Position numbers and translations under genes: made by a program. A DNA stretch of 63,442 nucleotides, counting the filler, from Rhabdomonas costata (lineage: Eukaryota): assembly GCA_019059605.1 (NCBI GenBank). It is 55 parts of 55 records of this genome, joined end to end, with 100 filler letters (N's around TTAATTAATTAA, not from the genome) between each part and the next. Parts side by side here need not be neighbours in the genome. Positions count along the whole stretch, not along the records: positions 27,746 to 28,801 come from JAHMHO010031043.1; 54 more parts are not named here. One strand, given 5' to 3'. The notes under the pieces are model-generated. The model was not told the DNA's origin. It saw only the letters and a list, made by a program, of their open reading frames with translations, and searched no databases. Below are positions 9,318-50,942 of this stretch, piece by piece. Numbering within the stretch: the stretch's first letter is position 1; each line of letters opens with the position of its first letter.

Positions 9318-9547
9318 CTGGATGACCGCAATGACCTCCTCGTCGTGCAGGATGGGCATCGTCAGCACGGACTTGGTGAGATAGCCCATCAGGCGGTCAA
9401 TGTTTGGGTTGAAGTGAGGGTCCTGGTAGGCGTCGGCGATGGACATGGTCTTCCCGGTGCGCGCGACGTGCCCAGCGATGCCCTCGTCCAGGTTAAACCG
9501 AATCTCCACCCCGCCCGTCTTATGCGCGGCCTTCGAGCACAGCTGCC
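9318..9547 (-). CDS. Exon encoding a GAF domain (cyclic-nucleotide phosphodiesterase/cyclase type)
   Basis: EIRFNLDEGIAGHVARTGKTMSIADAYQDPHFNPNIDRLMGYLTKSVLTMPILHDEEVIAVIQ is a classic GAF signature. Acceptor ttgcag; ends CAG|gcacgt (GC donor). Confidence 0.9.
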
Positions 9548-10505
9548 CTGCAACCCCCCACCGGCAGTGATCGCCTGGGAAAGAAATCACACCCGAGTCA
9601 AACAACCACGGCACCCATGTACAAAACCTTTCAAAGGAATTCAAAGGAAGACACAGACCACAAGCAATTGCGAAGCATTCGACCACCCCCGCCGTTATGG
9701 AGACCAGCGCGTGATAACTGCAGCAATCGCACACGTCACTCCCGCGTCCGTATTCGTAACAACGCCCTTTCACCATCCGTGCGATTCGCAGATCCTCTCC
9801 CGTGGGATAAGTGTTTCGCCCTATATCCCTTCCGCGTGACCCACGACGGAACAAAATCATCCATCGCTGCCAAAAGTTTAGGAACGTTCGGAGCGATCGC
9901 TGGGCACGGGCGAATACCACGGGGGAAGTGCTACAGCCAAGATGTGTGGTCCTTGACCTTAAATAAATAATTAAGAGGCACTTTCAACTTCCAATTAGCC
10001 ACATTGTACTCACGCTGACACGAAGAACGCGCCGGGCCAACGCTAAGAGTTACAGCTCGATAGTCAAACGGTAACCAAGCCAACACACGCTATGACCCAC
10101 AGTTGCAGTGGCATACCATGCTCCTTGTCCACAACAAACCTGCGAGACAAACAGACACGAGATATCAAAAAAGCTGGGCAATATTTAGCTCTGGATGGTC
10201 CAAGAGCACTGGGAACAGGGAAACCTTTTCCATGCAGCCAATCACCAAACCAACCGGCATGTCAACATTCTACAAACCAGAAACCGAAAAACAAAANNNN
10301 NNNNNNNNNNNNNNNNNNNNNNNNNNNNNNNNNNNNNNNNTTAATTAATTAANNNNNNNNNNNNNNNNNNNNNNNNNNNNNNNNNNNNNNNNNNNNGTCC
10401 GAAGCTTGATCACGACCATAGCGGCACGTCACTGTACACGTGATGACATACCGATAGCACCCACAGAGGGCAGGATGACACACGCATCATTAAGGCCACT
10501 GACAC

Positions 10506-11551: not shown

Positions 11552-11762
11552 CATCAAACAGTTTTTTCATTGCTTTCATGTTTTTCTCTTCTTGTATCTT
11601 ATCTTCAATGGCGCGTTTTCTTGGTTTTCTTGCAATTTTTTTAATTGCTTTGAGCTGATTAGGTATTGGGCGTATCAACTTCATGAATTCTTCCGTCCTT
11701 TTTTGTGTTTCATTTCTTATATCAATCATATTTATAATAGTACTAGAATTTATATTCTCCAT
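11552..11762 (-). CDS. Lys/Ile-rich hypothetical protein of the PolB element, 3'-truncated
   Basis: ATG at 11762 after an AT-rich tract, open to the contig end; AT-rich codon usage like the PolB ORF. Confidence 0.5.
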
Positions 11763-11894
11763 CTATACTATAGGTTTAGAATATAAATTTTAAAAATTAT
11801 ATCTTTTTTAATTTTATATATACTTATTTTCTTAAGCCTATAATTTTTAAAAATTATATATTTTTAAAAATTTTATATTTTTACTAGTAGTATA

Positions 11895-11967
11895 GTAAGT
11901 TGGGAGCACCGTCCCAGTTTTACGAAGCCTGCGGCTTCGGAAAACTAGGACGGTGCGCCCAACTTAC
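11895..11967. repeat. Hairpin: 35-bp arms (32/35 paired), 3-nt loop
   Basis: gtaagttgggagcaccgtcccagttttacgaagcc-tgc-ggcttcggaaaactaggacggtgcgcccaacttac. Confidence 0.95.
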
Positions 11968-12055
11968 GTTCACTTTCATTCGCCGCCGCGCCGCCGCCAT
12001 TAGACTATCTGTTTGAGAGAGAGCCGCTAAACTGACTGTCCTGTACAAGTTAAAT

Positions 12056-12157
12056 ATTACCCACCCCGTCCATAATATCTAGCGCATGATACCACCCAGT
12101 CCATCCATAATACCAAGCGCATAATACCACCCAGTCCAGACATAATCTCTAGCGCAT
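12056..12157. repeat. Three imperfect direct repeats of about 32-35 bp
   Basis: Units approximate taccacccagtcca..cataat.tctagcgcat and end at 12087, 12122 and 12157. Confidence 0.9.
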
Positions 12158-12212
12158 ACTAGGATATTTTTGTATAATTTATTAAAAAAATTATATAATA
12201 ATTATATAATTT

Positions 12213-12607
12213 TTATTCTGTTTTAATCTCTGTTTTAATATCTGTTTCTTCAAGCGGTGCTTTAATATCTTTTTCTTCAAGCGGAGCTGTACATAAACCA
12301 TCACACATAATATTTCGTTTGTTATATTTTGCACTAAGGCCTGTTTTCGATGTTTTATACCAGTATATAGAGCCGTTAAATTGTCTCATTCCTATATTTT
12401 CACACATCATATCAACGTTTGAAAATAGAACTTTTTTGAAATTTTTGTAGTTTAAAAGTTTGTTATTTTTGGTTTTCTGTACACCTTTACTCGAAAATTT
12501 GTCTTTCTTATTCTGTTCACTAAGACAATAATATAATTTACTTGATAAGCAGATCATCCCGTCACCGATGAACTCGGTTTTAAACAAACCAGCTGTTCGA
12601 TTGTCAT
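12213..12607 (-). CDS. Family B DNA polymerase, C-terminal part (Polinton/adintovirus-like), 5'-truncated
   Basis: DNRTAGLFKTEFIGDGMICLSSKLYYC...KFSSKGVQK...NIGMRQFNGSIYWYKTSKTGLSAKYNKRNIMCDGLCTAPL matches the RTxGLFKxE / KxY / KGV / KR..DG..T.PL pattern of this PolB group. Confidence 0.85.
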
Positions 12608-12765
12608 NNNNNNNNNNNNNNNNNNNNNNNNNNNNNNNNNNNNNNNNNNNNTTAATTAATTAANNNNNNNNNNNNNNNNNNNNNNNNNNNNNNNNNNNNN
12701 NNNNNNNATTTTATTCCTTCTTCATTCAGCGACTATATTTTTGGCAATAAAGAATATTTCGAACA

Positions 12766-13410
12766 ATGCTTGCCCGCAGGTTCGTTTCAGGCGCAATGCT
12801 GCGGCACTTTGCAACTAAAGTGAAGGAGACCACAGGCATTCCAGGGTATCCGGTGAACCCAAACTGGCGAATGGCCCTGCTTGACCTTTACCAGGACAAC
12901 CTCAACCTGGTTCAGAGGCTTCCCGAAGACTCAGCGTACCGCAAAGGTCTCACAAACATCACCCTGCATCACAAGGCCATTGTGGAGTCCAGCAGTGACT
13001 ATGATGTGGTGGAGATGAAGATTGGGCTGGGTCAGGTTGTTGCGTGCCTGTGATAACCGCTACTGTTTCCCGACTTACCACTTAAGCTGACTGGCTGCAC
13101 TCGCAGAAAACGGCACCCACTGGCGCTAATAGGCCGCTGCGTGCAATTACAGGTTGAACAGCTCATTAGGATTGCCGAGGGTGAGAAGAAGCTGATTCAA
13201 GACATGCTTGTGTGGCGTCTCTGGGAAGCCGACCACAGCATTCTCGACCGGATGGATGTCAGCTTCCGCACCACCATTGGAGGGCACTACAAGCCCCGGG
13301 CTTACGAAAAGATGCTGGACATGGAGGAGGAGAAGCTTTTGCTGGAGAAGCTGCAGAAGGAAGCCGAAGAAGAAAAGGTTCGGGTGACCGCTGGAGCTAA
13401 GCAGCAGTGA
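12766..13410 (+). CDS. NDUFA5: Complex I accessory subunit NDUFA5 (B13), complete; exons 12766-13035 and 13153-13410
   Basis: Mitochondrial-type presequence MLARRFVSGAMLRHFA; KETTGIPGYPVNPNWR...LPEDSAYRK...IGLGQ|VEQLIRIAEGEKKLIQDMLVWRLWE. The 117-nt GT-AG intron restores the conserved GQ-V/IE junction. Confidence 0.93.
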
Positions 13411-24267: not shown

Positions 24268-25166
24268 GGGGTGTGGGTGGTCAGTTTTGGAAACAACGAG
24301 GAAGAAGCGAGAGCTCGTATTCCAGCTTCCCCACACTGTGCACTGACCAATTCCAGGGTAGTGAGACCAGGAAAGCAGGGCGACCGCGTGAGTGCATCCA
24401 TGCCGGACTCCCCGATTGGGTTGGTACCAATGGCTAAGGTCTCTAGTTTTGGAAAATGAGGTGAAGCCGCAAACGCTCGAATCCCTGCAGGCCCTATTAA
24501 ATTGACCTCCAGAGTCAAGGTCTGCAGGCCGGTATGAAAAGAACAATCCGCAAGAGCTTGAATTCCCGGATCTCCGATATTATTGTAACGCGCATAGAAG
24601 GAGATAAGGTTGGGAAAAAAGGACGAAGCAGAAAACGCCTGCATTCCACCATCCCCAATTAAATTAGAGCAAACATCTAAGGCGGTCAGGCTGGTAAGGA
24701 AAGGTGAGGCCGCGAGGGCTTGCATTCCCCATTCTTCGATCTCGTTGTAGCCCAAGTTCAAGCACCTTAAGCTGGGGAACATAAAAGACCCCACAAGCGT
24801 TTCCATTTCTTCAAACCCGATCTGATTGTAGCCCAAATCCAGGGATGTGAGATTGGGAAAGACGCATGCAGCCGGGTTCGCGATCGCCTCGGCAACGGCA
24901 GTTTCTATCAAAAGCACCGCAAGATCCTTGCCATCGACCAGAATCTCCGCAGCATGGCAACCTACGCGAATGCTACGACGCACGGCAGCTCTTAGAATGG
25001 GATACTCAAGAACATCGGGAAACCGCAGAACCACTTTCCAGTTCGGAGCCAAGTACTCATCCACCAGCTCGCGAAACTGTCGGCAAACCTGCCGCAGGCC
25101 CAGCTGAGGCTTCAGCCGAAGAAATCGAAAGATGGTAACTAAGGCGTTCTCTGGAAGCGTGGGCAT
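24268..25166 (-). CDS. F-box + leucine-rich-repeat protein, intronless, 3'-truncated
   Basis: N-terminal LPENALVTIFRFL...LRQVCRQFRELV F-box, then seven 27-aa LRRs (LxxLxLxxNxIGxxGxxALAxSPxFPx). Confidence 0.9.
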
Positions 25167-25425
25167 CAGCTTTCATTTCATGCTTTTCGTTGCAGCTGTA
25201 GTTGTGGGAAGACTGCAGGTAAAGGAAGAGAGAGGCCAAATTAACTGATATGGATGAAAAACATTACATTCGAATTTATCCGTTCAGCGCACGACTGCAA
25301 TTTGTGATGCGTTACAAAACAACNNNNNNNNNNNNNNNNNNNNNNNNNNNNNNNNNNNNNNNNNNNNTTAATTAATTAANNNNNNNNNNNNNNNNNNNNN
25401 NNNNNNNNNNNNNNNNNNNNNNNGT

Positions 25426-26635: not shown

Positions 26636-28027
26636 GGGCGCATTGTGCGCTGGCTGTTGCCTGACTGACTGACTGGTTGGTTGGTTGGTTGTTGTGACCA
26701 CTGTGGGCTGACTGGCCACGGGTGCTCGGATGAGGTTCCGTTGGAGCGAACGGTGCCATGGGAAACCGGAACCGGCTCACCGCCGAACGTTCCACATACC
26801 TCGCTCTGCCCCATGGGTCCCGGGCCTTTGTCGCGCAGCTGCTCCTTTCCAGCCGAGCTGCATTGCTCCATTGCTGCTCGGGTCTCTGAGACTCCACATC
26901 CTTCCTTGGACTTCCTTGCGGGGCTGGGGCCTTATCTCGCAGAAACGACCCTTGCAGCTTTTCTTTCGGACCGGTGAACGGGCACTGTATCGACAGGCGT
27001 TGCCGTGCCAGCTTGCCGTGGTGCGTCTGCGAGTGTCTCACTCGAAAAAGCGGCATTTGGGGTTCATTCCTCTCAGCTGAATTGTGGCATGAGGATTGGG
27101 CGACTTCGAACAAATTTTCAGAGAATTTTCATTCTTCGTTTCTTGCTACCTGATTATCGGCTTTGCAGTGGTGGGAAATTGGTTGGGAAGAAATGCGATT
27201 GCTGAGAGCACGAAAAAAAAACACTCAGCCAACAGCCAGTGCCTCGTGGATAGTGGTGGAGGTGGGTTGCAGAATGTGCTTCAGATAACAATGGCACAAC
27301 ACCCATCACGGGGAGTGACGCGACGGTCTTCTCCACCCATTCCATCTGAGTTTACGTGATGGCAACAATGCCACAGCCAAGAAAAGGTAAAGCGACGAAA
27401 GATGCCCCTCTTACTCTTCAGGAAGAGTTCTTCACAGATGGAAAAAACAATATTTCGCCGGTTACCTGGTGAGGTAAACAGGATTACAGGTTTTCGCAAG
27501 CATCTGCACCATAATTTCGATGACACGCTCGCTCTTCCTCGCTGGGTTTGTGACAGCAGATCTCCACAGCGCAATGAGGCGTCCATACCGGTGTCAGAGA
27601 GCCTTCTGGTGGTGAAGGTGGTGCTGGTGGCCAGCCCCCCCACAANNNNNNNNNNNNNNNNNNNNNNNNNNNNNNNNNNNNNNNNNNNNTTAATTAATTA
27701 ANNNNNNNNNNNNNNNNNNNNNNNNNNNNNNNNNNNNNNNNNNNNGTGGGGGGGGGGGGGGTAAGAGGAGTTCCGGTGACGGAGAAGCAAAAAGATCTTG
27801 AATTATTGACCCTTTTTTACTGTGTGATAGGGCATTTTAAAATCGAGCTTTGTCACCTCTTTGTCAACAACCAACGACCACATGCTCGAAAACATGCCGG
27901 AGCGCGCAAACCAACCGAGACGAACGAAATCAGGACATGGGAAATATCAAAAGGAAACACGCATAATCCGAACGCTTGAGGCGGAAGGGTTCTGTGCACC
28001 CGCGTTTCACCGAATGACAAGGCATAC

Positions 28028-28801
28028 GTCTAGCAGGTCGTTGATCTGGGACAGCAGCGCACTTCCGCTGCAGCTGATCAGGTGTGCACACTCCCTTTGC
28101 TTGGGGTCCAGTGCCGTAGTTTCCAGGAGGATCTGCAAGCGCAAAGAAGGGTCTTGCAATTCTGGCCGTTCCATCCCTCTCCCTCTTTCAGTCCCTTTCC
28201 CGGACATATGGAACATATATCTCACAAGGAGAGGGGAGGGGGGCTGACTCCGCCCTCAGCACACACACCTGGAGTTTTTGTAGTGCCAGCCCAAGCACTC
28301 AGCTCAACCCGTGCGGTGCGCTGGCTGCGACAGCGCATTCAGAGAACCCGCTTCACTTCTCCCTGGCAATTGGATTCTAGAAAACCACCCAAAAAGCAAT
28401 TTTTCGTCTACAATTTTTTTTTGATATTACAGCAATCTAGAAGCAGAACGCAGGAAACATAGTATTTGTAGTACAGACAAAGACGCAAAAAACAAGTAAG
28501 CAGCGGAGAAAAAATTAATGCGTGCAGAAAAGGTATGTGTGACATACGTGAAGGGTATTCCATAACCACTTCCGGTCAAGCCGGTGACCAAAATCAAATC
28601 CAGACAACCGTAGACAAGAAATGGCTACTGTGTTCTGAATACAGCCCCACAGAAAACAGAACGGAAGAAAAAGCACATTCCTCGGCCATCCCAATGCACG
28701 TCGTCAACGGCGTCCGCATCTCGTGGCTCACCATCGCGAAGAACATCTCCTTCGAGCGCATCAGCTCCTGGGCCTGCTCCGCGGCCCGGGCCAGCTCCTG
28801 A
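28028..28801 (-). CDS. Sensor histidine kinase, HisKA (H-box) region; exons 28801-28681 and 28132-28028
   Basis: KEMFFAMVSHEMRTPLTTCIGMAE|ILLETTALDPKQRECAHLISCSGSALLSQINDLLD. The junction requires donor GAG|gaatgt. Confidence 0.93.
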
Positions 28802-28980
28802 NNNNNNNNNNNNNNNNNNNNNNNNNNNNNNNNNNNNNNNNNNNNTTAATTAATTAANNNNNNNNNNNNNNNNNNNNNNNNNNNNNNNNNNNNNNNNNNN
28901 NGGGTTGTGTTGTAGACCCCATCCTCAGTCCCTCCATGATTCGGAAATTCTGATGCGAGCTTTCTTCCATTTCTTGGCAG

Positions 28981-29957
28981 TGCGTGTGCCTTCTGCTGTA
29001 GATGCCGTCGAGATGGCGTTCGGCGCTGCAGTATGCCGCGACGAGGCGTGGGAGCGCTCCTTCTGTGATCAGCTGCACCACCACAGCCACATCCTGGATG
29101 AGCACGGGCACAACCCCCTCCTGATTGCTGCCAGCGGGCTGATCAGCGCGGGCAGCGTGAACGCGCTGGTGTTTGCCCAGCAATGCCTGGCATGGGCCGA
29201 GGAGCGGTACCCCTCGGACGTGCTGGCGGTGGCGGCGTGCCGGTGGTGGACCACAGGGGAGGAGGACCCCGCGCGGAAGGCCCCGTACCGAGTCATCAAC
29301 GGCACTCTGCGTCCCACGGGGCGAAAGACGGCTGCCTCTCTGGAGCTGGTGATGCCCGCGGTGTGTGTGCTGACGTGGGCCCTGGAGAACCTGCCGAGGA
29401 GCGTGGAGTTCGCTCGGAAGTCCGCGGCGGTGTACCGCGTGGTGGGATGGCTGTTCCCCAACCCTCAGCAGTACGACCCGCAGGCCCACTTCCGGGAGGG
29501 CACAGTGATCACGACGTATGACTTCCGGTCTGCTAGCCGGTCCCTGGCCATCGCGGCGAACGCGAACTTCTCGGCGCCACGGTGGGTGGGCGAGGATGTG
29601 CAGGACACGGGGCACTACCTTCTGATCGAGGACCTTCTGCCTGGGGTGAGTGTGGATGAGCTTGTGTCTGGGGCCATCGCGGACCCGTCGCTGTGCAAGG
29701 GTCACATCGAGGGCACCCACTTTGATTATGAGGTGAGGAACATGTCCGGAGAAGGGCCACCGGATGCCACAGGCTTCCAAGCTTTGGGCCCGGGGAGCTC
29801 CGGGTCCTGTCGTGTGGAGGTCGTTTTGACCAGCTCGGACACCGCACAGACCATCCGGGGCTTCTCCACGCCGAACTTCGCCACTCACTTTGTGATTGAG
29901 AGTGCCTGTGTGGCCTACGTGGCACCGGTGAGCTGCTACCCCGAGGAGGACGAGGTG
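28981..29957 (+). CDS. NAD:arginine mono-ADP-ribosyltransferase (R-S-E clade) domain, long exon
   Basis: PYRVINGTLR, ALENLP, VYR (29436), FRSAS (29529), HFVI...VSCYPEEDEV (E-x-E at 29946-29954); polypyrimidine-cag acceptor at 28980. Confidence 0.8.
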
Positions 29958-37916: not shown

Positions 37917-38478
37917 CCACCACAAGCTGCCCCCAGATTCAAACACGAACTCTATACACCCCACTCCTCAAGTATCCTTCCACAGAGCTTCACAATTTGC
38001 TTCAAAATCCAGCACAAACGCGGAATCAACCCCCCCNNNNNNNNNNNNNNNNNNNNNNNNNNNNNNNNNNNNNNNNNNNNTTAATTAATTAANNNNNNNN
38101 NNNNNNNNNNNNNNNNNNNNNNNNNNNNNNNNNNNNTGAAATCTGTCACCTGTGATTTGCACCGTGAGGGAAAGCTAGCAAAAATTTTGATTCGTTTTCG
38201 ATTTTTTTTGAAAACTCGCATTGGGTCCGGGGCCCTAATCACTGCGAGCTTGTTCACAACGAACTGTACAGGAACCCACCAAAGCGGATTCTTTTTCCGC
38301 TCCCAATAACACAAGCAGAAGTCCCTCCAAGACAGTTGAGCAAACTTAACAGTTCAAGGAGGGCAAGCACTAAAAGAAAGTGGAAAAAAAAAGAAAAGGG
38401 TGCCAACGAGGAAAGGAGTGCACAGCACAGAAAGGCATGAAAAAGGATGCAAGACACAAAAAATTGAAGAAGGCGTTC

Positions 38479-39189
38479 CTCGTCATCCCAGCGGAGGTCG
38501 TGGGTGTCTGCGAGGCACAGCACAACGTCGAACCGGCTTAGCACCGGTGAGGCAAGGGTGGTGGTGAGGGTGAGGCTGCTGGTGGGATCGAACCGCCCCG
38601 CCCGCCCCGTGGGGTTCATCGCGGCCACCACAGAGCACTGCGCCCGCAGCTTCGTCACTAGTCCCGCCTTCGCTGGGTGTACAAATGGCACCGCAGAAAG
38701 CCATCCGTATCACGGAATGCTAGATTTCCATTACGAGTCTAGCATCACTACGCCTGCACGTGCTTTAGAAAGGACAAAATCCTCCCACACAAAACAAAAA
38801 AAAACTGGAGTGCAAACCAATCTGCCAGCCCCACCTCAGGCTGCTCTTGTTATCACGACTCTTCCTCCACAGTGCGAACTGCAATGGCGCCGGCGCCTGC
38901 TTGTTCCAGAACTTCCTAAATAACTGTCCAGCCCTCTTCATCATACCGACTTAAAGCTTTGACTGTCGAAACCCACACACACTCTGCTTTTAGGCTGCGC
39001 GCCCACAAACGCAAACGCAGCGTGACGCTCTCGTGTGTGCCCTGTGGGCTCCGTTTCCCACCAGAGGAAACGTGCATCGCGTCAAGGACAGGACACACCC
39101 ACGCTGATGGTCTGCTGCTCCATGGCCTCATTCACCGCACCCATGTCGTGCTTCGGGATCAGCCCAAACTCGTCGATGCAGCACACCCC
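38479..39189 (-). CDS. MCM9: MCM-family helicase, most like MCM9; exons ~39189-39099 and 38672-38479
   Basis: GVCCIDEF...[31 protein letters not shown]...[24 protein letters not shown]: Walker B plus SRFD arginine finger. AGLVxKL and the downstream WD fit MCM9. Confidence 0.88.
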
Positions 39190-39982
39190 ACANNNNNNNN
39201 NNNNNNNNNNNNNNNNNNNNNNNNNNNNNNNNNNNNTTAATTAATTAANNNNNNNNNNNNNNNNNNNNNNNNNNNNNNNNNNNNNNNNNNNNCCTTCACC
39301 GAGCGGGGCAAAGAGGGGTACGGGTCGCAAGCCAAGTGGGCCTGAACCCCGAAAAAGGAGGGAGGGATGCATCCAAAAAGACCCACGTCAAGTTGGGAAA
39401 TAAGGAATTTCCATAGGAGTTTGCATAGCAACACCCTGCGTCACCCGCTGAGGGTTCGTAATACCTCACTATCATTCATACCATTTTCGGTTATGTCGAA
39501 CATCCCGTGTGGTCACACAGTGAAAACAACACGCCCAAATAGACACCTAGGACTGGTGGATACCGAGGCGAGAAAATGGATCACTGGTGCCAGCCCTCAA
39601 CTTTGAACTGTTTTCTTGCAGGCATTTTCGGGACCACTATATAAGGATAGTTACCACCCGAAACTCGACGAGGAACGTACGTGACCCATTTAAACAACCT
39701 GGTCTCCTCGGACCCTATATAATTGCCATCGTCATTCAGCAGAATGCTTATGTGATCCCCCGGCCCCCTGCCATTTTCGTTCGCACCTGTACCAAGGAAA
39801 GGTCTTTAGTGTTGCTAAGTGCCGCAGGCGCGAGAAAAATGTCGAAACTTTGCACCCATCTGGAATGCCAGCACATCCACGTTGTGTGTGGCATATACGC
39901 GCATGGGTAGTTTGGCTAAGTGAAGAAATTTTACCCAAGAAAGAAAAAATTACCCCAAGTCCCACGTGGAGACAAAACAGGA

Positions 39983-46970: not shown

Positions 46971-47444
46971 CTATGAGGAAATTTGACCAGAGGTACAAAA
47001 AGCAAACACTACTCATTTAGCGGAAGGATGATGAACGAGAATGATAAGGGGGAAGGGCACAAACACAGAGTTAGATGGAAAACCCTCTTGTCGCATGATT
47101 TGAACAGAGGCAAAACGTGCGATATAAAGAGACGCATGCTGCATTCCAACCATTTCATCATTTCTACAGCGGCGCACGGATACACACCTGGACCAGGGTC
47201 TTGTTTTGCAGACCCGAGTCGGCTGCCATCGCCATCCAGCACACTCTGAAAAGATTGACCCCTCGCCCTCAACAGAANNNNNNNNNNNNNNNNNNNNNNN
47301 NNNNNNNNNNNNNNNNNNNNNTTAATTAATTAANNNNNNNNNNNNNNNNNNNNNNNNNNNNNNNNNNNNNNNNNNNNGGTGTGTTAGTTCAAGTGCCGCC
47401 TGCGTTGTTTCCTCTCAAGCTTCTTATGCTGAATCTTCGCACAG

Positions 47445-48132
47445 GTGTGGACTTCGTGGCGGTCTCGTACGTCCGCAACGGCCAGGACCTGGCTCCGGCT
47501 CGGGAGGAGCTCCGCCGCCGCAAGTCGATCGTGCCCCTGGTGGCGAAGATTGAGCACCCCTCCGCCCTGAGGAACATGGCGGAGATCCTCAGGGAGGTCT
47601 GATTCTTCAGGGAGGCAGCTGATTTTTCTTTCACCGGTTAGGAAGCCACGAAATTGACCTGTACAACAATGGCGCAAATCGGTTGGAGGGAACTGAAGAA
47701 GACGAACGGAACCAACAAAACTGCTTCCTTTCAAAGTCAGGTCATTGGACGAGGTAGGTGAATTCTTGTCGTCGTGCGCGTCCTTCCTTGGTGAGGTCCT
47801 CAACGCCTGTGTGCATTCCATAGCTTTCGATCTGCCTTTTTTCTCTGCAGGCCGACGCGGTGATGGTGGCGCGTGGGGACTTGGGGGTGGAGATCCCGAT
47901 GGAAACGCTCCCGCTGGCCCAGGAAGAGATCATCCGTGCCGCGCTAGGCCGTGGGCTGCCCGTGATTGTGGCTACGCAAGTGTTGGAGAGCATGCAGTTC
48001 AACCCCACCCCGACCCGGGCGGAGCTCACGGACATTGCCACGGCGATTCGTCAGGGCACGTCCTGCCTGATGCTCTCCGGGGAAACGGCGACCGGGCAGT
48101 ACCCCATCGAGGCGGTGACCACGATGGCAGAG
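47445..48132 (+). CDS. PYK: Pyruvate kinase; exons 47445-47596 and 47851-48132
   Basis: [30 protein letters not shown] and MLSGETA motifs; phase-0 GT-AG intron. Confidence 0.97.
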
Positions 48133-50942
48133 GTGTGCGTTTTCTTCCTCAGTCGAATTCTCTCCTGGACTCGAGGTCGGTGGCCCTGAGATCCGCTGCA
48201 GCCACACTAAGACCAATAATACTTCAACTAAATGTAGAACTTAACATGCTGGCAATGTCTCAAAGACCTCCGCCAGCCTAGAAACGAGGAATGCGCCACG
48301 GAAAGTACCGTTTTTTTTACTTTGCTTTTACTTTGACACGTCCAGCGACTAAATACCACGCAGTCTGCGGGCTTTTTCTTGGGACTGAATTTCAAAGGGT
48401 GTCATATGGTTTCAGTCATATGACACCCACCCNNNNNNNNNNNNNNNNNNNNNNNNNNNNNNNNNNNNNNNNNNNNTTAATTAATTAANNNNNNNNNNNN
48501 NNNNNNNNNNNNNNNNNNNNNNNNNNNNNNNNGTGTGGTTATCAACGACATTCTGGTCTCCCACCTCCACCCCCATCTCTTCACTTTCATTTTTGAGCGG
48601 TCTCCGAATAGAAAGTCGGAAAGGCCTTTCTTTGCTGGTCGACCGAAGCTGAAAGGGTGGTGGTTCGGGAATACCGCCGGCAGCCATACCTTGCGGCTTT
48701 TTTGTCCACTGGGAAACTGGGACACTACGTGTAGTTTCTATTGAGTTTTGAGGTCCCAATGTTTGTAAATCAAACAAGATTAACCGTTGCGTGCCATCAA
48801 AAGGAGTCATTGGCCGAGAGGGGGGATGACTTCAGTTTTAACTCAACGCAATGTAACTGGTTTGACGTTTTTAGTTTGCGACGACGGAAATTGGGTGTGT
48901 GCATTTAGCACGTGGAGCAGCCATACAAAGGGAATGTCCTATGAACCCCAACCGAAGTGACACTAGTGAGCTCTGTGTTTTCCGTTACATAACGACGACG
49001 AGTTTTGCAGTAGATGAACCCATTTCATTTCCCCCATTTCCCCTGTATTAGGCTTTGTGCTGGACCCAACACACTGGCGATGACCCCTAATTGTTGGAAG
49101 CTAGAATTAGCCCCCAGGGGATCGAAATGAGGGTTTGGCTTGATCAGCAGCCGATTGGCCACCAAACGGGTTTTCTTTTCTGCTGTCCATTGATAAACTT
49201 TTTTGTGTTCTGCCTTTATTGAGTTTTTCAAAACGATATGGCCCTCCAGCACGCAGTGAGTTGTATGTCGAAGCTGTGGTGATATGGTTTGTGGTGCAGG
49301 AGGGCGGGTCGGGGTAAAAAGTAGCACCTTCACTCCTGCGTTCTCCTCCGTTCAGTACTTTTGCGCAATCAGTGAGCCCGCCGCGGTCCGTGCTGAGCTC
49401 CCCTGGGGCCCCCTTTGGGGCGCTGCTGAGTGAGATCCGCCACAGCCTCTCCGAGCCAGGCTCGCTGTGCCGCAGCCTCATGCGCGGCTCCCACACCTTT
49501 ACTCACATCCACCCCAACTCCAGTGCCCCCTCCCAGTCCCACCACCATCACCACCACCACCATCACCGCACCTCTCCCACCACCACANNNNNNNNNNNNN
49601 NNNNNNNNNNNNNNNNNNNNNNNNNNNNNNNTTAATTAATTAANNNNNNNNNNNNNNNNNNNNNNNNNNNNNNNNNNNNNNNNNNNNGGGGTTGTTTTAG
49701 GGACCTGTCGGATACGATGGGCATCGGCGGAAAGCCTCAACAGGATGGACGGGGCCTGACAAGTATTTGCAGGGTCCAAATTCCTTTGGTGTTGTGTGGA
49801 GCGGAGTCGGCTCAAATCGGAGGCTTCGGCTGGGGAGAGTGATCAAACATTAAGGAGGTGTAGGTGTGGACATCGTGACGTGCCAGCCATCCTCCCCTGA
49901 GCAAGCATTATGCGAATGTGGCTGGGGATCGCATGGGCAGCGCACCTTTCACCAAGCCTGGGATGAGCCTGATCAACGACATGATATGATTTCGCTGTCC
50001 GATAAACACAATACCCACCTGCCAGATGTGGGATTGGGGAGGGTGGTCGGTTTGAAGTGGTCCACCTTCAAACTGGTTGGAATGAATTGCTTGGAATTGA
50101 GCAGAGAACCTTACTGAGTCCATGCGAGTCCATGTGCTTCAAAGAGAAAGACGAGATGGCCAACACGCTGGCTTCACCTGTTTTGGAGGACTGCCACGCA
50201 ATTCTGAGTGCAATCATGCCGGCTTTTTGGTACCGGCTTTTTTCTTCCCTGAAAACGGCTTTTGTTGTTTTGGCACACTTCTCCAGAGCGAGAATATATT
50301 CGCCATGCCTTCGCCCACAAGAGGAAAAAACAGGGAGCACCACCCCACTATAGACTGCAAAGGGTTCCTCTTCTCTTTATTTCTCTTCTCTTGGCGGCAA
50401 AGGGATGGTTCACGATGGGCAAGAAAGGGGGGTTCCTTCCCCACACCGCTCAAACCTCTCTCTTGAGGAAAGGAAATGAGCTCTTAGGCAAATGGCAACG
50501 AATGGCAGCAACAATCGGGGGGAGCAACACGGACGAGGGGAAAGACAAATGGGCAAAGATGATCCCTTTGACCACGGCTGAGTTGTAGGGAGGGGTTTCC
50601 ACAATCCTCTCAGATGAGGGTGTGGGGCAGGCACTCAAGGGGTAATGAACGAGTTGTGTAGGGGAATGTAGAGCAGAAAAACACACACACGAGGACCTAA
50701 ACTGAAGCGATGAAGGGCACGTGTAGTTGTAAGCACAAAAAANNNNNNNNNNNNNNNNNNNNNNNNNNNNNNNNNNNNNNNNNNNNTTAATTAATTAANN
50801 NNNNNNNNNNNNNNNNNNNNNNNNNNNNNNNNNNNNNNNNNNTGTTTTGTTGCCTTGTTACTCAATGGGTTTGTGTGCATTCTTGCCCTGTATTCTTGCG
50901 CTGCGCTGTGGCCCGACCCCGGTGGTGTGGGGTGAATTGCAG

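What the first reader, a model, noticed from the sequence alone, without database searches (positions are those of the whole stretch)
28133..28680. GA-AG intron in a histidine kinase: donor position +2 appears free when the site reads AG|G-x-A-Y-G
Seen: the conserved HisKA peptide SHEMRTPLTTCIGMAE-ILLETT...INDLLD is restored cleanly if the minus-strand intron starts GAG|GAATGT and ends ttgcag|ATC. The nearest GT (4 nt inside) is out of phase. Two other non-GT donor candidates (9317 CAG|GCACGT; 38478 GAG|GAACGC) share exon-terminal AG and +3..+5 = AYG, like the canonical GTATGC donors at 28027 and 44177. Ordinary GT donors here are otherwise very degenerate. Known: frequent GA donors are mainly reported from dinoflagellates, which lack complex I, while this assembly has NDUFA5. 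Inference: a spliceosome that tolerates T, C or A at +2 when flanking pairing is strong.
Basis: partly seen in the sequence, partly recalled or inferred. Interest (0 to 1): 0.8.

Follow-up and report, generated by a model that had tools for sequence, protein, structure and literature searches.

The report
GA-start intron in euglenid kinase gene
One copy of a sensor histidine kinase gene from the euglenid Rhabdomonas costata has an otherwise ordinary intron that begins GA instead of GT; this is a rare but known splice-site variant, and whether this copy is actually spliced could not be checked.

Summary
On the minus strand, two HisKA exons (28681-28800 and 28028-28132) are separated by 548 nt that start GAATGT and end TTGCAG. 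Only this intron, or its 1-2 nt slides, gives an uninterrupted protein.

The window is not one locus. It is 55 unrelated ~1,055-bp contigs joined by linkers. The kinase exons match transcriptome-derived Rhabdomonas costata proteins, which read GMAE|ILLETT across this junction. No single protein matches both exons: exon 1 fits RCo016899/900 (40/40) and exon 2 fits RCo016905 (35/35).

Four other genomic copies read through the same position as GTN-TGY (3) or GCN-TGY (1). The GA therefore looks like a +2 substitution in a conventional donor. The Euglena nonconventional-intron code is not met, and end-pairing is at background level.

Site 9317 is GC and also unanchored.

RNA and raw reads were not available, so I could not separate real GA-AG splicing (about 0.45) from a dead paralog (about 0.28) or an amplification/assembly artefact (about 0.12). 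Non-GT/GC-AG introns are already reported for this assembly. Interest is modest.

The parts
27746..28801 (.). One independent 1,056-bp contig of the fragmented assembly; the only part of the window relevant to the finding
   Evidence: 55 contigs of 1,048-1,066 bp separated by N44-TTAATTAATTAA-N44; no similarity of this contig to the rest of the window.
28681..28800 (-). Exon fragment (cut by the contig end) encoding the H-box half of HisKA, ...FAMVSHEMRTPLTTCIGMAE
   Evidence: translation. HisKA profile 2-25, E 2.2e-8; 40/40 identical to RCo016899/RCo016900, 36/40 to RCo016905.
28133..28680 (-). 548-nt intron with GA...AG borders (equivalently GG...CA or AG...GC after sliding 1-2 nt)
   Evidence: Its removal is the only way to get the ungapped 75-aa sequence seen in transcriptome-derived paralogs.
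28675..28680 (-). Donor hexamer GAATGT after exon ...GAG. It has +4 T and +5 G like the local GT donors, and A instead of T at +2 (base 28679)
   Evidence: the six GT donors placed in the window all have T at +4 and G at +5; paralog read-throughs are V-C, V-C, V-C and A-C, i.e. GTN-TGY x3 and GCN-TGY x1.
28133..28152 (-). 3' end of the intron: pyrimidine-rich tract ACCCTTCTTTGCGCTTGCAG ending in CAG
   Evidence: pyrimidine fraction 0.76 over -20..-4, within the range 0.53-0.88 of the five GT-AG introns compared.
28028..28132 (-). Exon encoding the second half of HisKA, ILLETTALDPKQRECAHLISCSGSALLSQINDLLD
   Evidence: HisKA profile 26-59; 35/35 identical to RCo016905, 31/35 to RCo016899/900.
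27746..28027 (-). Start of the next intron, with conventional donor GAC|GTATGC. The genomic read-through (DLLDVCLVIR) departs from the cDNA-derived DLLDFSKIQ exactly here
28153..28676 (-). Best all-canonical GT-AG alternative (donor AAT|GTGCTT, acceptor ATTGCAAG|ACC). It would insert 8 residues into the HisKA helix and is not seen in any transcript-derived paralog
   Evidence: score 342 against 360..

Best explanation
The contig is a fragment of one paralog of a Rhabdomonas costata (euglenid) membrane sensor histidine kinase family. The 548-nt interruption is an intron at a position shared by the whole family. It has the build of a conventional spliceosomal intron: exon-terminal AG, +4 U and +5 G as in other local donors, and a pyrimidine-rich 3' end with CAG. 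Its only departure is A instead of U at +2. The most likely history is a T-to-A substitution in a GT donor, since sister copies carry GT or GC. I infer, but have not shown, that the copy is still spliced at the same site by the U2-type spliceosome as a rare GA-AG intron. In the copepod and tunicate genomes rich in GA-AG introns, the reported context is the same AG|GAA. Shown here: the intron position, the junction at protein level in paralogs, the GA in the assembled DNA, and the lack of the Euglena nonconventional signature. Inferred: that this particular copy is transcribed and spliced.
For: - **Species.** RCo016899, RCo016900 and RCo016905 carry accessions EP00906_Rhabdomonas_costata. They come from a protein set predicted from the transcriptome, because the genome was not gene-predicted (PMC8219788, sections read).
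- **Junction.** All three proteins read GMAE|ILLETT. Exon 1 is 40/40 identical to RCo016899/900 and exon 2 is 35/35 identical to RCo016905.
- **Assembly match.** The window's contigs have GC 0.5163; the published assembly figure is 51.63%.
- **Best splice solution.** GA-AG or its slides rank top among 6,372 combinations. HisKA profile coordinates abut, 2-25 and 26-59.
- **Paralogs.** 4 of 4 other genomic read-through ORFs break at the same residue and continue with GTN/GCN + TGY. The donor is therefore homologous, and +4..+6 is conserved in 5 of 5 copies.
- **Local donors.** Six GT donors placed in the window all have +4 T and +5 G. Two of them (pyruvate kinase, MCM) have abutting Pfam coordinates: 182-239|240-328 and 123-152|153-214.
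- **Intact exons.** There are no stops or frameshifts in the 75 codons.
Against: - **No matching transcript.** No transcript-derived protein matches both exons. The contig is a mosaic of two expressed paralogs, so it may be a third, possibly silent, copy or a chimera.
- **No RNA or read data.** RNA-seq and raw reads could not be consulted, and the genome is not held.
- **GA is a singleton.** 0 of 6 other donors in the window and 0 of 4 paralog donors are GA.
- **Assembly quality.** The DNA came from whole-genome amplification of sorted or microdissected cells at 10-20x coverage (PMC8219788).
- **Splicing chemistry.** In most studied spliceosomes a +2 U-to-A change impairs splicing (recalled, not from a call).
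Confidence: 0.45

Rival explanations
1. Dead or silent paralog. The GT donor of one copy of a multi-copy kinase family mutated to GA. This copy is not productively spliced, and the clean junction is seen only in its expressed sisters.
For: - The family has at least seven sequence variants: this contig, four other genomic ORFs and two distinct transcript-derived sequences.
- None of the transcript-derived proteins matches both exons of this contig.
- All other copies carry GT or GC.
Against: - Both exons are intact, and each is 100% identical at protein level to an expressed paralog. Any inactivation would therefore be very recent.
- +1 and +4..+6 of the donor and the 3' CAG are all preserved.
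- The published protein set was made non-redundant, and only 43.5% of transcriptome reads map to the assembly. Absence of a matching protein is therefore weak evidence.
Confidence: 0.28
2. Artefact. The A at 28679 is an amplification or consensus error, or the contig is a chimera of paralogs created by PCR-based whole-genome amplification or by the assembler. The real gene has GT.
For: - The assembly comes from WGA4-amplified DNA, has 10-20x coverage and N50 1,194, and the authors blame uneven amplification for its fragmentation (PMC8219788).
- The exon 1/exon 2 mosaic pattern (40/40 to one paralog, 35/35 to another) is what a chimera would look like.
- One paralog read-through (P0008: V-C-A-F) differs from this contig (E-C-A-F) only at the first codon of the four compared.
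Against: - A consensus error has to strike one specific base. The starting material was 69 to about 2,000 cells, so many templates contribute.
- A chimera explains the mosaic but not the A, which must still exist in some template.
Confidence: 0.12
3. Euglenid nonconventional (or 'intermediate/nonconventional') intron. It would be removed by the spliceosome-independent pathway that relies on pairing of the intron ends.
For: - By the operational definition used for this genome (not GT/GC-AG) it would be filed as nonconventional (PMC8219788).
- The 5' base is a purine and the first base of the downstream exon is a purine (A). Both are features of the class (PMC4770533 abstract; PMC12501133).
- A 4-bp helix, +5..+8 with -10..-7, is possible.
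- The full intron folds slightly better than shuffles (z -2.05; 4 of 100 shuffles as good).
Against: - The experimentally defined code N3-CDG / CH'G-N5-6|R is met on neither side in any of the 3 slides. The motif +4..+6 is TGT, not CAG.
- The terminal-pairing energy of -4.2 kcal/mol is reached by 17% of 3,000 random segments. It lies inside the 0 to -6.2 range of five GT-AG introns in the window.
- The intron has a pyrimidine tract plus CAG, and its paralogous introns are GT/GC-AG.
- The code was defined in Euglena. 38.8% of E. agilis nonconventional introns lack it, so this rival is not excluded.
Confidence: 0.08
4. A canonical donor is used instead: GC at 28674 (adds EC), GT at 28662 (adds ECAFSS), or GT at 28676 with the AG at 28153 (adds EYPSLRLQ). 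This would give an isoform with an insertion in the HisKA helix.
For: All three are in frame and stop-free.
Against: - 0 of 3 transcript-derived paralogs carry an insertion.
- The donors GCTTTT and GTTCTG lack the local +4 T/+5 G pattern.
- The acceptor at 28153 has no pyrimidine tract.
- The alignment scores are lower: 342-348 against 360.
Confidence: 0.05

Closest known systems
[quoted passage not shown]
   Same: - GA at the 5' end and AG at the 3' end.
- Exon-terminal AG and A at +3, the flanks reported as highly conserved in the two GA-rich animals.
- Otherwise conventional intron architecture.
   Different: - A single instance in a euglenid, with no RNA support for this copy.
- No canonical GT six nucleotides upstream, as described for FGFR. 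The exon sequence upstream is ...ATGGCCGAG.
- No variant U1 could be looked for.
Euglenid nonconventional and intermediate introns (PMC4770533 abstract; PMC11170887 sections 4 and 10; PMC12501133 sections 5 and 11)
   Same: - Same organismal group.
- Borders are not GT/GC-AG.
- Purine at the intron's first base and at the first base of the next exon.
- One canonical border (AG), as in the 'intermediate/nonconventional' subtype.
   Different: - Lacks the defining CAG/CTG-type pairing at +4..+6 / -8..-6 and the N3-CDG/CH'G-N5-6 code.
- Terminal pairing is at background level.
- It has a pyrimidine tract and conventional homologues in paralogs.
Putative introns with nonconventional boundaries already reported in the R. 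costata draft genome (PMC8219788: 1,164 Exonerate predictions, 105 contigs with read support, 7 curated)
   Same: Same assembly, and the same operational class (not GT(GC)/AG).
   Different: Whether this contig is among them is unknown. The main text does not mention GA-AG or histidine kinases ('histidine kinase': 0 occurrences).
Dinoflagellate GT/GC/GA donors
   Same: GA tolerated at the donor beside GT and GC.
   Different: - The organism here is a euglenid with complex I subunit NDUFA5.
- There is no evidence of a genome-wide GA class here.

Membership tests
U2-type GA-AG intron | GA at intron 5' end and AG at 3' end | tested here: met
   The borders are slidable by 1-2 nt (GG-CA, AG-GC give the same mRNA).
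U2-type GA-AG intron | Conventional flanks: exon AG before the donor, A at +3, pyrimidine tract before the acceptor | tested here: met
   GAG|GAATGT; pyrimidine fraction 0.76 over -20..-4; CAG acceptor. Flank pattern as described in PMC7072748.
U2-type GA-AG intron | Spliced mRNA from this very locus | not testable with these tools
Only paralog-level protein evidence is available.
U2-type GA-AG intron | Recognition by U1/U6 (complementarity to the donor) | not testable with these tools
   No snRNA in the window (0 Rfam matches). The genome is not held.
Euglenid nonconventional intron | Borders other than GT/GC-AG | tested here: met
   GA-AG.
Euglenid nonconventional intron | Pairing of +4,+5,+6 with -6,-7,-8 (mostly CAG/CTG); code N3-CDG / CH'G-N5-6|R | tested here: not met
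   +4..+6 is TGT, ATG or AAT in the three slides, and no C-H-G lies at -8..-6 or -9..-7. 2 of 3 register pairs form, one of them a wobble.
Euglenid nonconventional intron | Terminal base pairing stronger than in conventional introns (10 nt + U7 + 10 nt test of PMC11170887) | tested here: inconclusive
   -4.2 kcal/mol. 17% of 3,000 random segments reach -4 or lower. Five GT-AG introns of the window give 0, 0, -1.5, -2.1 and -6.2.
Euglenid nonconventional intron | Purine as first base of the downstream exon | tested here: met
   A at 28132.
Euglenid nonconventional intron | Spliceosome-independent removal | not testable with these tools
   Needs experiments.
HisKA (PF00512) histidine kinase | H-box and dimerisation helices matching the profile without a break | tested here: met
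   Exon 1 covers profile 2-25 (34.5 bits; cut-off 26.9). Exon 2 covers 26-59 (18.3 bits alone). The full paralog P0007 scores 69.4 bits.
Rhabdomonas costata draft assembly | Identity to R. costata proteins and assembly statistics | tested here: met
   40/40 and 35/35 residue identity to EP00906 proteins. GC 0.5163 against the published 51.63%, and ~1 kb contigs against N50 1,194. No nucleotide-level comparison was possible.

The most novel reading that the evidence does not exclude
The R. costata spliceosome genuinely accepts A (as well as C) at +2 when the donor reads AG|G-N-A/N-U-G. The histidine-kinase family, with T, C and A at +2 of one homologous intron, would then show this tolerance in evolutionary flux. 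Euglenids would become a further lineage with a recurrent GA-AG class, alongside two animals and the dinoflagellates, and distinct from their CAG/CTG nonconventional introns.
Probability: 0.15. Interest if true: 0.5.

Novelty: new member of a known kind. Interest (0 to 1): 0.27.

Why it matters
If this copy is spliced, it would be a documented spliceosome-type GA-AG intron in a euglenid. That would be a third category beside the group's conventional and CAG/CTG-type nonconventional introns. It would also warn that 'nonconventional' counts based only on 'not GT/GC-AG' mix two mechanisms. If the copy is not spliced, it is an ordinary donor-site lesion or an assembly artefact in a multi-copy family. 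Either way it does not show a new splicing system. The practical lesson is that the window is a concatenation of unrelated 1-kb contigs from an amplified, low-coverage assembly, so single-base oddities need read-level confirmation.

Tried and rejected
- **RNA and DNA read evidence.** The whole genome is not held, so there was no genome-wide donor table and no U1/U6 search.
- **Rfam.** 0 matches on the window at gathering thresholds.
- **Paralog searches.** Two searches with exon 1 and with its read-through ORF returned the same four genomic ORFs and three R. costata proteins. Their DNA could not be fetched, so +3 and the wobble bases of the paralog donors are unknown.
- **Metagenome scan with P0004.** It kept 80 loci at 31-47% identity over one uninterrupted match each, which I take to be bacterial kinases. 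None informs on the intron. All 80 span the junction, and 54 of 80 are ungapped within residues 85-94. The other gaps fall in the loop after the junction.
- **MCM exon search for the 38478 candidate.** No R. costata protein was found, only one 49%-identical relative. Its alignment ends at W-D, before the disputed residues.
- **Nonconventional-intron hypothesis.** Tested and not favoured.
- **Self-similarity of the contig.** None within the window.
- **Earlier notes of this scan.** None found by place, by sequence or by words.
- **Literature.** A full-text search for 'GA-AG' together with 'Euglena' listed 5 papers, none on euglenid GA-AG introns judging by titles and abstract openings in the listing. 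The supplements of PMC8219788, which may list this contig, were closed.

Full report
**What the window is.** The 63,442-base window is not a continuous locus. It consists of 55 contigs of 1,048-1,066 bp, sorted by length and joined by N44-TTAATTAATTAA-N44 linkers. No whole genome is held for it. Each contig must be read alone. The finding lies on contig 27746-28801.

**The observation.**
- On the minus strand, 28681-28800 encodes QELARAAEQAQELMRSKEMFFAMVSHEMRTPLTTCIGMAE.
- The sequence then runs GAATGTGCTT... for 548 nt and ends ...CTTTGCGCTTGCAG at 28133.
- Bases 28028-28132 encode ILLETTALDPKQRECAHLISCSGSALLSQINDLLD, followed by GTATGC.
- Pfam HisKA aligns to profile positions 2-25 on the first piece and 26-59 on the second.
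- I enumerated all 6,372 in-frame, stop-free donor/acceptor pairs around the gap. I scored each product against the two R. costata protein variants, P0007 and P0010 (P0010 is identical here to P0004).
- The maximum score (360) is reached only by intron 28133-28680 (GA-AG) and its two slides (GG-CA, AG-GC), which give the same mRNA because AG is repeated at both junctions.
- Canonical alternatives exist but all insert residues: GC at 28674 (+2 aa, score 348), GT at 28662 (+6 aa, 344), and GT at 28676 with the AG at 28153 (+8 aa, 342).
One correction is that the nearby GT is out of phase only with respect to the cag|ATC acceptor.

**Whose gene it is.**
- A search with exon 1 found EukProt proteins RCo016899 (100% identical) and RCo016905 (90%), plus four short ORFs from ENA contigs of 526-2,536 bp.
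- The cluster look-up gives accessions EP00906_Rhabdomonas_costata and a third protein, RCo016900.
- The R. costata paper (PMC8219788; abstract, sections 6, 7 and 19, and passages) states three relevant facts. The proteins were predicted from the transcriptome, and no gene prediction was done on the genome. The genome was assembled from whole-genome-amplified DNA at 10-20x, with N50 1,194 and GC 51.63%. Only 43.5% of transcriptome reads map to it.
- The window's contigs have GC 0.5163.
- I conclude that the window is from this or an equivalent R. costata assembly. This rests on protein identity and assembly statistics, not on a nucleotide comparison.

**Evidence for the junction, and its limit.**
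- All three transcript-derived proteins read ...CIGMAE|ILLETT... with no insertion. The intron position and the exact junction are therefore supported by cDNA in this gene family.
- No one protein matches this contig throughout. Exon 1 is 40/40 identical to RCo016899/900 and 36/40 to RCo016905. Exon 2 is 35/35 identical to RCo016905 and 31/35 to RCo016899/900.
- The contig is therefore one of three things: a third paralog, a natural or artificial recombinant, or the true template of transcripts that were mis-assembled. Which one cannot be decided here.

**Paralogs.**
- The four ENA ORFs read through the same junction into their introns: P0005 ...GMAE-V-C-V-H, P0008 ...GMAE-V-C-A-F, P0009 ...GMVE-V-C-C-P and P0006 ...GMAE-A-C-T-H.
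- Val is GTN, Ala is GCN and Cys is TGY. Their introns therefore start GTN-TGY (3 of 4) or GCN-TGY (1 of 4). This contig has GAA-TGT.
- A second search with the read-through ORF found the same four and no more.
- The donor is thus homologous across copies, with +1 G and +4..+6 TGY in 5 of 5, and T, T, T, C, A at +2.
- Their contig sizes fit the R. costata assembly, but their origin is not stated by the tool and their DNA could not be fetched.

**What kind of intron.** Euglenids have conventional introns, with GTGTG as the E. gracilis donor consensus pairing with U1 (PMC11170887). They also have nonconventional introns, defined as follows:
- Pairing of +4..+6 with -8..-6, mostly CAG/CTG (PMC4770533 abstract).
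- CCAGG at +3..+7 and CCTG at -9..-6 (PMC11170887).
- The experimentally derived code N3-CDG / CH'G-N5-6|R (PMC12501133).

This intron meets that code on neither side in any of its three slides. Its terminal-pairing energy in the published 10+U7+10 test is -4.2 kcal/mol. That value is reached by 17% of 3,000 random segments from the window, and it falls inside the 0 to -6.2 range of five GT-AG introns of the window. The whole intron folds only marginally better than shuffles (z -2.05; 4 of 100 as good).

It does share the local conventional pattern. Six GT donors I could place all have T at +4 and G at +5:
- pyruvate kinase, GAG|GTCTGA
- MCM, G|GTGTGT
- NDUFA5, CAG|GTTGTT
- a transporter-like gene, AC|GTATGC and G|GTTTGA
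- this kinase, GAC|GTATGC

How firmly each junction is placed differs:
- The pyruvate kinase and MCM junctions are anchored by abutting Pfam coordinates.
- The kinase GTATGC donor is anchored by the cDNA-derived DLLD|FSKIQ.
- The NDUFA5 and transporter junctions rest on my reading of the frames. Pfam gave no hit for the short transporter exons, and for NDUFA5 it covered only the first exon.

The 3' end has a pyrimidine fraction of 0.76 plus CAG. I therefore read it as a conventional-type intron with a +2 substitution. [quoted passage not shown]

- **38478.** The exon is MCM8/9-like (Pfam MCM 153-214). The frame stays open past the proposed GAG|GAACGC for seven more codons (EERLLQFF), up to a GTGTCT donor. 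No downstream exon is on the contig, no R. costata protein was found, and the one relative found aligns only up to W-D. Nothing requires a GA donor there.
- **9317.** CAG|GCACGT ends a GAF exon at profile position 105 of 133. The next exon is off the contig, GT alternatives exist a few bases on, and GC-AG is in any case a conventional variant.
- **NDUFA5.** It is present (12751-13035; E 4.1e-13), as expected for a euglenid.

- **Functional GA-AG intron.** In favour: intact exons identical to expressed paralogs, preserved +1, +4..+6 and 3' signals, a GC sister showing +2 is not absolutely fixed in this family, and a flank context known from other GA-AG classes.
- **Dead paralog.** In favour: the multi-copy family, the lack of a matching transcript-derived protein, and GA being a singleton (0 of 6 local donors, 0 of 4 paralogs).
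- **Artefact.** In favour: the amplified, low-coverage, fragmented assembly and the mosaic exon pattern.
- **My odds.** 0.45 functional spliceosomal GA-AG, 0.28 dead copy, 0.12 artefact, 0.08 nonconventional pathway, 0.05 alternative canonical donor.

**Novelty.** GA-AG introns are a known rare class. Introns with non-GT/GC-AG borders are already reported for this assembly: 1,164 predictions, 105 read-supported contigs and 7 curated. A full-text search for 'GA-AG' with 'Euglena' listed nothing on euglenid GA-AG introns (listing only). At best this is a new member of a known kind. The broader claim that position +2 is free in this organism is not supported by what can be checked here.

Noticed in passing
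window 1-63442: The window is 55 length-sorted contigs (1,048-1,066 bp) joined by N44-TTAATTAATTAA-N44 linkers. Pooled GC is 0.5163, the same as the published R. costata assembly figure. Any reading that uses neighbouring contigs as genomic context would be wrong.
   Followed up: yes
window 38458-38672 and 39099-39192 (minus strand): Two exons of an MCM8/9-like helicase, separated by a GT-AG intron (38673-39098, donor G|GTGTGT). Pfam MCM coordinates abut (123-152 | 153-214). No R. costata protein for this gene was found.
   Followed up: partly
window 12751-13407 (plus strand): NDUFA5 (complex I) exon, followed by a 117-nt GT-AG intron (13036-13152). The junctions carry the direct repeat CAGGTTG. 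The intron ends pair well (-6.2 kcal/mol, 3 of 3 pairs in the +4..+6/-6..-8 register). This is the 'conventional/intermediate' look described for euglenids.
   Followed up: partly
window 47378-48186 (plus strand): Pyruvate kinase barrel domain split by a 254-nt GT-AG intron (47597-47850, GAG|GTCTGA ... TTTTTTCTCTGCAG|GCC). Pfam coordinates abut (182-239 | 240-328).
   Followed up: yes
window 28902-29957: This contig has GC 0.64, far above its neighbours, and frames open across its whole length on both strands (352 aa each). It may be bacterial contamination, which the paper says one DNA sample contained, or a GC-rich exon.
   Followed up: no
window 11552-12607: This contig has GC 0.317, far below the rest. 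It may be organellar, repeat-derived or contaminant.
   Followed up: no
window 24268-25172 (minus strand): An uninterrupted ORF of about 300 aa with leucine-rich repeats of the ribonuclease-inhibitor type and an F-box-like start. No intron is apparent on this contig.
   Followed up: no
window 9318-9548 (minus strand): A GAF-domain exon (Pfam GAF 50-105 of 133) ending CAG|GCACGT. A GC donor is possible, but the next exon is off the contig.
   Followed up: partly
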